This document shows positions 57,698-58,987 of a DNA stretch of 64,000 nt, one piece after another. The stretch is from assembly GCF_051903065.1 (NCBI RefSeq), contig NZ_CP178438.1, one strand, 5' to 3'. A program made the position numbers. How positions within the stretch are numbered: position 1 is the stretch's first letter; the number at the start of each line of letters is the position of its first letter. Origin of the DNA: Escherichia coli (GTDB taxonomy: Bacteria > Pseudomonadota > Gammaproteobacteria > Enterobacterales > Enterobacteriaceae).

Positions 57698-58987
57698 TCA
57701 CGAAAATCCAGTACCTGGCTATTGTAACGTGTTTTTCGACTTCTTTTGCGGGAATATCAGTAAACACAATCGCGATCGCGAAATTAATTCACAACAATTC
57801 AAGGGCTTCATTTTTTTGGAAGTCGCCTCGCAGAAGGCACAGATCGCGTAGTGAAAGCACTTGCATTGCCTCATAGCTCTTTTACCATTAGTCATTAATA
57901 CGCCGTTAAGCAACTCAGGACTCTATTATGGCTTTTACACCTTTTCCTCCCCGTCAGCCTACGGCGTCTGCCCGTTTACCGCTGACGCTGATAACGCTTG
58001 ATGACTGGGCGCTTGCCACCATTACTGGCGCGGACAGCGAAAAATATATGCAGGGTCAGGTGACAGCAGATGTCAGCCAGATGACAGAAAATCAGCATCT
58101 GCTCGCCGCCCATTGCGACGCCAAAGGTAAAATGTGGAGCAATTTACGTCTGTTCCGCGACGGCGATGGCTTTGCATGGATTGAACGGCGCAGTGTGCGT
58201 GAACCGCAGCTGACTGAACTGAAAAAATATGCGGTGTTCTCTAAAGTGACCATCGCGCCGGACGATGAGCGTGTGCTGCTTGGTGTTGCCGGTTTTCAGG
58301 CGCGCGCCGCGCTGGCAAATATCTTTAGTGAACTGCCTTCGAAAGAAAAACAGGTAGTTAAAGAAGGCGCGACCACTTTGCTATGGTTTGAACACCCTGC
58401 AGAACGTTTCCTGATCGTAACCGATGAAGCCACTGCCAATATGCTGACCGATAAACTGCGCGGTGAAGCGGAACTGAACAATAGCCAACAGTGGCTGGCA
58501 TTAAACATTGAAGCGGGTTTCCCGGTGATTGATGCCGCCAACAGCGGGCAGTTTATCCCACAGGCGACCAACCTCCAGGCGCTGGGCGGCATTAGCTTTA
58601 AAAAAGGCTGCTATACCGGACAAGAGATGGTGGCGCGAGCTAAATTCCGTGGTGCCAACAAACGCGCGCTCTGGTTGCTGACGGGTAGCGCCAGCCGACT
58701 GCCGGAAGCCGGTGAAGACTTAGAGCTGAAAATGGGCGAGAACTGGCGTCGTACCGGAACCGTGCTGGCTGCGGTAAAACTGGAAGATGGTCAGGTCGTG
58801 GTACAGGTCGTCATGAATAACGATATGGAACCGGACAGCATCTTCCGCGTGCGTGACGATGCGAATACATTGCATATCGAGCCGCTGCCGTATTCACTCG
58901 AAGAGTAAATCTCTGTGTCGCATCATGCATTTATCGCCTGATGCGACAAGGGTGTGTCTTTTCAGGCCTACAAAGGCACACCCATTA

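What the first reader, a model, noticed from the sequence alone, without database searches (positions are those of the whole stretch)
58916..58983. Tandem hairpins with a REP-like GCCTGATGCGAC core between convergent ygfZ and yqfA
TGTCGCATCA-N13-TGATGCGACA (10-bp stem) is followed by GGGTGTG-N20-CACACCC, which overlaps the yqfA stop. This is a likely bidirectional terminator or REP-type element.
Basis: seen in the sequence. Interest (0 to 1): 0.2.

Follow-up and report, generated by a model that had tools for sequence, protein, structure and literature searches.

The report
Decayed REP repeat between ygfZ and yqfA
The two hairpins are real, but they are alternative folds of one ordinary, slightly decayed copy of E. 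coli's common REP repeat plus a leftover half-copy, most likely capping the ends of two converging mRNAs and not stopping transcription themselves.

Summary
The window is E. coli. They fold far better than shuffled sequence (z = -5.9 on + and -3.7 on -). Hairpin 2 ends 1 nt before the yqfA stop and does not overlap it.

Hairpin 1 pairs a truncated inverted REP arm with the REP 5' arm. Hairpin 2 pairs the REP loop and 3' arm with flanking sequence. The canonical REP stem is a third, weaker, mutually exclusive fold.

The locus is highly polymorphic. 2,035 of 5,426 E. coli genomes carry three REPs here. 1,595 carry the variant with hairpin 2, always at one place per genome, and 338 carry this exact allele. 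The canonical allele's 36-mer occurs about 11 times per genome.

No hairpin is followed by a U tract. Published K-12 data show Rho-dependent ends on both strands, near-complete readthrough when Rho is inhibited, and a 3' end just past a REP hairpin.

Verdict: a known REP element. "REP-type" is supported and "bidirectional intrinsic terminator" is not. Interest is low.

The parts
57928..58908 (+). ygfZ coding sequence (326 aa), stop TAA at 58906-58908. This is the upstream gene on the + strand.
   Evidence: ORF list; RefSeq ygfZ annotation in the 100% identical strain FDAARGOS_497.
58916..58928 (+). Truncated inverted y-REP arm (TGTCGCATCATGC; GTCGCATCAGGC in most strains, which equals the last 12 nt of a y REP read in GTAG orientation). 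It forms the left arm of hairpin 1.
   Evidence: Matches GCCTGATGCGAC on the - strand with 1 mismatch. Present in all alleles examined. The 24 nt upstream show no similarity to the rest of a REP, by direct reading.
58916..58948 (.). Hairpin 1: 13-nt arms with 12 of 13 paired and a 7-nt loop ATTTATC. It starts 7 nt after the ygfZ stop. RNA energy is -18.2 kcal/mol on + and -18.1 on -.
   Evidence: It is in the MFE of every allele, including K-12. 94% of cells are paired across 9 alleles, with one both-sides change (A-U to U-A) and one intermediate.
58936..58971 (-). One y-type REP unit. On the - strand it reads GTAG-GCCTGAAAAGACACACCCTTGTCGCATCAGGC. On the + strand it reads GCCTGATGCGAC-AAGGGTGT-GTCTTTTCAGGCCTAC. 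This is a diverged 'class II' allele.
   Evidence: Aligns base for base with the canonical REP GCCTGATGCGACGCTGGCGCGTCTTATCAGGCCTAC at the same locus in O157 and AHM8 and with K-12 REP3. The canonical 36-mer is a dispersed repeat and is also present in the K-12 yaaX-yaaA spacer.
58936..58967 (.). Canonical REP stem-loop: foot GCCTGA/TCAGGC, an internal 3x3 bulge, and upper stem GACA/TGTC. It is mutually exclusive with hairpins 1 and 2. RNA energy is -13.4 kcal/mol on + and -14.7 on -.
   Evidence: Across 13 alleles 82.3% of cells are paired, and pair 13-20 switches between G-C and A-U.
58968..58971 (-). GTAG tetranucleotide at the foot of the REP (CTAC on the + strand). This is the motif required by TnpA_REP.
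   Evidence: Direct reading. Its role is described in PMC3333891 and PMC8266576.
58950..58983 (.). Hairpin 2: 12 pairs, GGGTGTGTCTTT with AAAGGCACACCC, and a 10-nt loop TCAGGCCTAC. It ends 1 nt from the yqfA stop. RNA energy is -18.2 kcal/mol on + and -14.8 on -, where the G.U becomes a C.A mismatch.
   Evidence: Present only in class II alleles. Covariation is no better than shuffles.
58972..58983 (+). Flank AAAGGCACACCC between the REP and the yqfA stop. It forms the right arm of hairpin 2. The inner part AAAGGC is invariant across all alleles.
58985..59644 (-). yqfA/trhA coding sequence (219 aa), stop at 58985-58987. This is the convergent gene.
   Evidence: ORF list; RefSeq trhA annotation.

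Best explanation
The spacer holds one diverged copy of the E. coli y-type REP (repetitive extragenic palindrome) plus the last 13 nt of a second, inverted copy.

Shown: it is a locus-bound, mutated member of the REP family. The locus gains and loses REP units between strains, with one unit here and three in K-12, and the two direct copies in K-12 lie exactly 119 bp apart. In this allele the mutated REP loop happens to complement the flank next to yqfA. Transcripts of either strand are therefore predicted to fold into two side-by-side hairpins, each about -15 to -18 kcal/mol, instead of the weaker canonical REP hairpin.

Inferred: RNA polymerase is not stopped here. The converging ygfZ and yqfA transcripts run through, Rho terminates them downstream, and 3'-to-5' exonucleases (PNPase, RNase II) trim them back to the first stable hairpin. 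Hairpin 1 would cap ygfZ mRNA and hairpin 2 would cap yqfA mRNA. This is the classical REP role of protecting mRNA 3' ends.

Both hairpins also lie within 15 nt of a stop codon (7 nt and 1 nt). They could therefore also dampen translation termination, as reported for REPs. This is speculative for this locus.
For: Identity:
- The unit aligns base for base with the canonical y REP at the same locus in other strains.
- GTAG is present at the foot.
- It lies outside genes, between convergent genes.
- The canonical allele's 36-mer has 68,805 places in 5,425 genomes, median 11 per genome, and an identical copy sits in the K-12 yaaX-yaaA spacer.
- The window's variant has exactly 1 place per genome in 1,595 genomes.

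Locus dynamics:
- 2,035 genomes have the 3-REP form.
- E. coli E69 has a 3-REP form with a class II-like third REP, and E. albertii has a decayed REP sharing GTGTCTTTTCA.
- Pseudocitrobacter has two inverted z REPs in the same spacer.
- Ton-Hoang et al. report that BIME number at a locus varies between strains (PMC3333891).

Fold: hairpins 1 and 2 make up the MFE on both strands.

Mechanism:
- No U tract follows any hairpin.
- K-12 has Rho-termination regions at 3042772 on the + strand (coverage 149 to 19 without BCM, 156 to 165 with BCM) and at 3042422 on the - strand (191 to 42 without, 188 to 174 with).
- K-12 has a Term-seq 3' end at 3042438 on the + strand, about 10 nt past the middle REP hairpin (PMC7815308).
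- Dar & Sorek 2018 show that Rho-dependent transcripts end just downstream of stable stem-loops lacking U tracts, that these protect against PNPase and RNase II, and that 24% of them are REPs (PMC6061677).
- REPs fewer than 16 nt from a stop codon can lower translation (Liang et al. 2015, as summarised in PMC12306157).
Against: - All transcript data are from K-12. Its spacer has three REPs and no hairpin 2, and nothing has been measured for this allele.
- In K-12 the mapped + strand 3' end lies after the middle REP and not after hairpin 1, so hairpin 1 is not the dominant end there.
- No - strand 3' end was called in the spacer.
- The Rho windows are 800 nt wide, so positions are coarse, and BCM raises pervasive transcription generally.
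- Covariation for hairpins 1 and 2 does not exceed shuffled controls, so nothing shows selection on these particular folds. They may be accidental.
- The element may have no function at all beyond being a repeat remnant.
Confidence: 0.6

Rival explanations
1. The tandem hairpins form a bidirectional intrinsic (Rho-independent) terminator. Each hairpin would dislodge RNA polymerase arriving from its own side.
For: There are two strong GC-rich hairpins (-15 to -18 kcal/mol) directly after the two stop codons of convergent genes. Hairpin 1 has a terminator-like stem and loop size.
Against: No U-rich tail follows either hairpin on either strand. The tails are AGGGTGTGTC and ATTACGCCTG on +, and TTGTCGCATC and CAGAGATTTA on -. 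The terminator scan finds no site inside 58909-58984. Hairpin 2 has a 10-nt loop. In K-12, which shares hairpin 1 and has three REP hairpins, readthrough with Rho inhibited is about 106% on + and 93% on - (PMC7815308).
Confidence: 0.08
2. This is a collision-type bidirectional terminator. Converging RNA polymerases from ygfZ and yqfA collide head-on, and the nascent-RNA hairpins fix where they meet, independently of Rho and of U tracts (model of Ju et al. 2019 and Wang et al. 2022).
For: The genes are convergent and separated by only 76 bp, with hairpins that do not resemble intrinsic terminators. The model states that a stem-loop is required for collisions at defined positions (bioRxiv 10.1101/2022.10.23.513370).
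Against: That class is defined as Rho-independent, whereas both strands at this locus in K-12 are scored Rho-dependent with near-complete readthrough under BCM. I could not consult the SEnd-seq tables because the paper is not held. There are no data for this allele.
Confidence: 0.08
3. The hairpins act mainly on translation. Because they begin 7 nt (ygfZ) and 1 nt (yqfA) after the stop codons, they would stall the terminating ribosome, trigger mRNA cleavage and tmRNA rescue, and lower YgfZ and TrhA output, as described for REPs within 15 nt of a stop.
For: The distances are read directly from the sequence. [quoted passage not shown] In canonical alleles the REP stem foot is 17 nt from the yqfA stop, so only class II alleles bring a hairpin next to it. 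In Pseudocitrobacter the REP stems also start 10 nt and 6 nt from the two stops.
Against: The original paper could not be read, and neither gene could be checked against its list. There are no expression data for this locus. Ribosomes unwind hairpins of this strength routinely. Hairpin 2 shows no covariation signal. This reading is compatible with the best explanation and does not exclude it.
Confidence: 0.15
4. It has no cellular function. It is a decaying remnant of a selfish or domesticated mobile repeat, and its hairpins are by-products of palindromic sequence plus drift.
For: - The variant is single-copy.
- It carries several substitutions relative to the consensus, including T11 to A at a base contacted by TnpA_REP (PMC8266576).
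- In alleles 18AR and EC0880B even the GTAG is lost.
- Some strains replace the whole spacer with other DNA without obvious harm.
- Neither hairpin 1 nor hairpin 2 shows significant covariation.
Against: Hairpin 1 is retained in every allele sampled, including the most divergent ones, through a both-sides change. A REP-type hairpin close to each stop codon recurs in another genus. A stable 3' end maps next to a REP hairpin in K-12.
Confidence: 0.25

Closest known systems
E. coli y-type REP (palindromic unit Y) and BIME clusters (Stern 1984; Gilson/Bachellier; Ton-Hoang 2012)
   Same: A 36-nt imperfect palindrome with the GCCTGATGCGAC...TCAGGCCTAC frame, GTAG at the foot, an internal mismatch bulge, and a position outside genes after a stop codon. 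The number of units at the locus varies between strains. K-12 has y, inverted z and y units here.
   Different: This copy has a mutated loop and upper stem (AAGGGTGTG in place of GCTGGCGCG) and T11 changed to A, which enlarges the bulge. It occurs once per genome, is single and not paired in a BIME, and is predicted to fold with its neighbours (hairpins 1 and 2) in preference to folding on itself.
REP stabilisers and protective 3' stem-loops of Rho-dependent transcripts (Newbury 1987; Peters 2012; Dar & Sorek 2018)
   Same: Stable hairpins without a U tract directly after the coding sequence. The K-12 locus is Rho-dependent on both strands, with a precise 3' end about 10 nt past a REP hairpin.
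   Different: Protection has not been measured at this locus or for this allele. The protective structures here would be hybrid hairpins (half-REP with REP arm, and REP with flank), not the REP stem itself.
Bidirectional intrinsic terminators between convergent genes
   Same: Position between convergent genes, and GC-rich palindromes readable on both strands.
   Different: There is no A tract or U tract flanking the stems, there are two separate hairpins and not one shared one, and the K-12 data show Rho dependence and readthrough.
REPIN (two inverted REPs forming a long hairpin; Bertels & Rainey 2011)
   Same: Hairpin 1 is formed by two REP arms in inverted orientation. The Pseudocitrobacter spacer holds a full REPIN-like pair (-56.6 kcal/mol).
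   Different: In the window only 13 nt of the second REP remain, so it is not a complete REPIN doublet.

Membership tests
E. coli REP (y type) | 30-40 nt imperfect palindrome matching the y consensus frame | tested here: met
   58936-58971 aligns without gaps to the canonical 36-mer at the same locus in O157, AHM8 and K-12 REP3. About 29 of 36 positions are identical by direct count. The REP stem has 10 of 13 or 11 of 14 positions paired.
E. coli REP (y type) | Conserved GTAG tetranucleotide 5' of the palindrome foot | tested here: met
   CTAC at 58968-58971 on + is GTAG on -. The feature is defined in PMC3333891.
E. coli REP (y type) | [quoted passage not shown] | tested here: met
   Positions 58942/58961 (T.T) and 58944/58959 (C.T) are unpaired, with G.T between them. 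The bulge is present and is enlarged by the T11-to-A change. The feature is defined in PMC8266576.
E. coli REP (y type) | Lower-stem contact base T11 (contacted by TnpA_REP) | tested here: not met
   The - strand reads GTAGGCCTGAA..., so position 11 is A, whereas canonical alleles have T (GTAGGCCTGAT...). My numbering follows PMC8266576 and the mapping is my inference. This suggests the copy is a poor TnpA_REP substrate. It does not mean the copy is not REP-derived.
E. coli REP (y type) | Highly repeated, dispersed in intergenic regions of the genome | tested here: inconclusive
   The canonical allele's 36-mer has a median of 11 places per genome at megablast stringency, 68,805 places in all. 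The window's own variant has 1 place per genome. It is the only REP in the 64-kb window. The family criterion holds for the locus's canonical allele, and this copy is a diverged derivative.
E. coli REP (y type) | Extragenic, transcribed with flanking genes | tested here: met
   It lies wholly in the 76-bp spacer between the stops of ygfZ and yqfA. Transcription across the K-12 spacer is shown by reads and a 3' end (PMC7815308).
E. coli REP (y type) | Cognate RAYT / TnpA_REP gene in the same genome | not testable with these tools
   The window does not contain rayT. rayT is present in 3,574 of 5,426 E. coli genomes and has been lost in part of B2 and most of B1 (PMC3333891). I could not determine its status in the window's genome.
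BIME (REP pair in inverse orientation) | [quoted passage not shown] | tested here: not met
   Only 13 nt of an inverted REP remain (58916-58928), and the 24 nt upstream show no REP similarity. K-12 and E69 do have y, inverted z and y units here.
Intrinsic (Rho-independent) terminator | GC-rich stem-loop (loop 3-8 nt) immediately followed by a U-rich tract | tested here: not met
   There are no terminator-like sites within 58909-58984. The tails after each hairpin lack a U run. Hairpin 2 has a 10-nt loop.
Intrinsic (Rho-independent) terminator | Termination independent of Rho in vivo | tested here: not met
   This applies to the K-12 allele only. Rho scores are 8.29 (+ strand, p = 1e-19) and 4.21 (- strand, p = 3e-14), with readthrough restored by BCM (PMC7815308 Supplementary file 2). 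It has not been tested for this allele.
Rfam RNA families | Match to any curated covariance model | tested here: not met
   There were no matches at E <= 1 in 58500-59400 on either strand.

The most novel reading that the evidence does not exclude
In about 29% of E. coli genomes (the class II alleles, including B2 lineages such as CFT073 and ST131, and this window), mutation of the REP loop has created a new 12-bp hairpin that abuts the yqfA/trhA stop codon. Canonical alleles instead have a REP stem 17 nt away. This hairpin could be a selected, lineage-specific exaptation that changes TrhA output, through ribosome stalling at the stop or through altered 3'-end protection. That would be an example of a decaying REP being rewired into a different RNA structure. 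The G-C to U-A switch at the outermost pair, with a G.A intermediate allele, would be its first compensatory step.
Probability: 0.08. Interest if true: 0.35.

Novelty: already known. Interest (0 to 1): 0.1.

Why it matters
It matters little. REPs are among the best-known bacterial repeats, and their presence after stop codons, their variable copy number between strains and their role as mRNA 3'-end protectors are textbook knowledge. The case has modest value as a clean illustration of three things:
- how a REP locus shifts between one and three units
- how a decayed REP can refold with its neighbours, so that sequence-only hairpin spotting splits one element into two
- why a strong palindrome between convergent genes should not be called a terminator without a U tract or Rho-inhibition data

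Tried and rejected
- **Rfam scan** of the region at E <= 1 found nothing.
- **Strict degenerate REP consensus** with 3 mismatches found nothing in the window, not even this copy, because its loop and upper stem are too diverged.
- **z-type REP head and REP tail motifs** elsewhere in the window gave only chance-level hits inside long ORFs.
- **Covariation as evidence for selected RNA structures**: hairpin 2 equals shuffles, hairpin 1 has too little variation, and the REP stem is only marginally above shuffles at 30 of 500. I therefore reject it as proof of function.
- **K-12 RefSeq annotation** shows no repeat feature at this spacer. The same record also shows none at a bona fide REP site, yaaX-yaaA, so the absence is uninformative.
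- **Link between the decayed class II allele and loss of rayT**: the genome counts are similar (1,595 against about 1,850), but published rayT loss is in part of B2 and most of B1. That does not match the allele distribution, so I make no such claim.
- **Papers not held**: Liang et al. 2015 and Ju et al. 2019. The Dar & Sorek supplement and the RepRanger gene lists were not available as text.
- **Outgroup scan** with a yqfA C-terminal peptide pattern returned only 4 loci, and the E. albertii contig ends inside the spacer. The ancestral state (one or three REPs) therefore remains unresolved.

Full report
**Where we are.** The window is E. coli. A 501-bp stretch around the finding is 100% identical to strain FDAARGOS_497 and matches 5,425 of 5,426 complete E. 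coli genomes. ygfZ runs on the + strand (57928-58908, stop TAA 58906-08). yqfA, now called trhA, runs on the - strand (58985-59644, stop 58985-87). The spacer between them is 76 bp, 58909-58984.

**Observation.**
- Both stems are longer than noted. Hairpin 1 (H1) has 13-nt arms, 58916-28 and 58936-48, with 12 of 13 paired and a 7-nt loop. Hairpin 2 (H2) has 12 pairs, 58950-61 with 58972-83, one of them a G.U, and a 10-nt loop.
- The pair of hairpins is the minimum-free-energy fold on both strands. The energy is -39.5 kcal/mol (z = -5.9) on + and -35.0 (z = -3.7) on -.
- One detail is wrong. H2 ends at 58983, 1 nt before the yqfA stop, so it abuts the stop and does not overlap it.

**What it is.**
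- In other strains the same position holds the textbook y REP `GCCTGATGCGACGCTGGCGCGTCTTATCAGGCCTAC` (O157, AHM8).
- That 36-mer is a dispersed repeat with 68,805 places in 5,425 genomes, median 11 per genome at megablast stringency. An identical copy lies in the unrelated K-12 yaaX-yaaA spacer.
- The published defining features are 30-40 nt, an imperfect palindrome, GTAG at the foot and a mid-stem bulge (PMC3333891; PMC8266576). All are present.
- The lower-stem base T11, which TnpA_REP contacts, is A in this copy.
- The left arm of H1 (58916-28) is the last 12-13 nt of a second y REP in inverted orientation. The rest of that copy is gone.

There are therefore three mutually exclusive helices:
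- H1 pairs the half-REP with the REP 5' arm (-18.2 kcal/mol).
- H2 pairs the REP loop and 3' arm with the flank (-18.2 on +, -14.8 on -).
- The canonical REP stem is weaker (-13.4 on +, -14.7 on -).

The two hybrid hairpins win. This is why a sequence-only reading saw "tandem hairpins".

**Population picture.** The spacer is a REP hot spot.
- K-12 has 195 bp with three units (y, inverted z, y). The two direct y copies are exactly 119 bp apart, which equals the length difference from the window. 2,035 genomes have this long form.
- Short forms fall into two classes. Class I has the canonical REP and no H2. Class II has `GACAC-TGGT-GTGTC...TTTTCAGG` with a `CAC[A/G]CC` flank and does have H2.
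- Class II occurs in 1,595 genomes, including CFT073 and ST131, always at one place per genome. The exact window allele occurs in 338 genomes.
- E. coli E69 has a long form whose third REP is class II-like. E. albertii has a decayed REP sharing `GTGTCTTTTCA`. Pseudocitrobacter faecalis has two inverted z REPs filling the same spacer and folding at -56.6 kcal/mol.
- Both REP classes occur in both long and short forms. At least two gain, loss or recombination events must therefore have happened. Which form is ancestral is unresolved.

**Is either hairpin selected?**
- H1 is in the predicted fold of every allele and pairs in 94% of cells. There is a single both-sides change (A-U to U-A in 18AR, with E69 as a mismatched intermediate), which is not above shuffles (122 of 500).
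- H2 pairs in 86.5% of cells across all alleles, but its covariation equals shuffles (0.095 against 0.096).
- The canonical REP stem does slightly better, with pair 13-20 switching between G-C and A-U (30 of 500).
- None of this proves selection on a particular fold.

**How it most likely works.** No hairpin is followed by a U tract on either strand. Direct data exist only for K-12 (Adams et al. 2021, PMC7815308):
- DirectRNA-seq with and without bicyclomycin calls a Rho-termination region on the + strand at 3042772, inside antisense yqfA. Coverage goes from 149 to 19 without BCM and from 156 to 165 with BCM (Rho score 8.29).
- It calls another on the - strand at 3042422, inside the spacer. 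Coverage goes from 191 to 42 without BCM and from 188 to 174 with BCM (Rho score 4.21).
- With Rho inhibited, both convergent transcripts therefore read through H1 and three REP hairpins almost completely.
- Term-seq (LB, OD 0.4) finds one + strand 3' end in the spacer, at 3042438, about 10 nt past the middle REP hairpin.

This is the pattern Dar & Sorek described. Rho-dependent transcripts are trimmed by PNPase or RNase II back to a stable stem-loop that lacks a U tract, and a quarter of such stem-loops are REPs (PMC6061677). I therefore read the window's hairpins as 3'-end caps for ygfZ mRNA (H1) and yqfA mRNA (H2), not as terminators. This is an inference from another allele.

A second, compatible possibility is an effect on translation. 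REPs fewer than 16 nt from a stop codon can depress translation (Liang et al. 2015, via PMC12306157). H1 starts 7 nt from the ygfZ stop and H2 starts 1 nt from the yqfA stop. In canonical alleles the REP stem is 17 nt from the yqfA stop.

The collision model of bidirectional termination is defined as Rho-independent, which the K-12 data contradict.

**Verdict.** "REP-type element" is supported, and "bidirectional terminator" is not. The element is an ordinary, already known kind of repeat in a somewhat decayed, locus-specific allele. Interest is low.

Noticed in passing
L022 702-2465 (E. coli R32_14_1F, NZ_CP074749.1 952501-954264); homology with the window resumes at about 58984: In this strain the ygfZ-trhA spacer holds a cassette of about 1.8 kb in place of the REP. 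It carries two co-oriented genes (423 aa and 155 aa, annotated hypothetical) with no Pfam or PADLOC match at E <= 0.01. It begins 26 nt after the ygfZ stop and ends with a CCCCAGCC/GGCTGGGG hairpin 9 nt from the trhA stop. In one search, 142 of 5,425 matching genomes lack >=80% coverage of the 501-bp query in one piece, so an interrupted spacer is not very rare.
   Followed up: partly
K-12 NC_000913.3 3042438 (+), = L003 2439: The only Term-seq 3' end in the K-12 spacer lies after the middle, inverted z REP. It does not lie after hairpin 1 or after the third REP, which an exonuclease coming from downstream would meet first. This suggests an endonucleolytic cut or unequal hairpin stability. It remains unexplained.
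   Followed up: no
E. coli genome collection: rayT (the REP-associated tyrosine transposase) is detectable in only 3,574 of 5,426 complete E. coli genomes. This is in line with the published losses in part of B2 and most of B1. Whether REP decay at individual loci tracks rayT loss could be tested genome-wide.
   Followed up: partly
L013 3033-3127 (Pseudocitrobacter faecalis DSM 27453): The orthologous ygfZ-yqfA spacer in another genus is filled by two inverted z-type REPs forming a REPIN-like hairpin of -56.6 kcal/mol. The REP stems begin 10 nt and 6 nt from the two stop codons. So either this convergent junction has been colonised by REPs repeatedly, or REP occupancy there is ancient.
   Followed up: partly
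NC_000913.3 as held in the collection: The K-12 reference record in this collection lists no repeat_region features even at well-known REP sites. Absence of a REP annotation in these tables should not be read as absence of a REP.
   Followed up: yes
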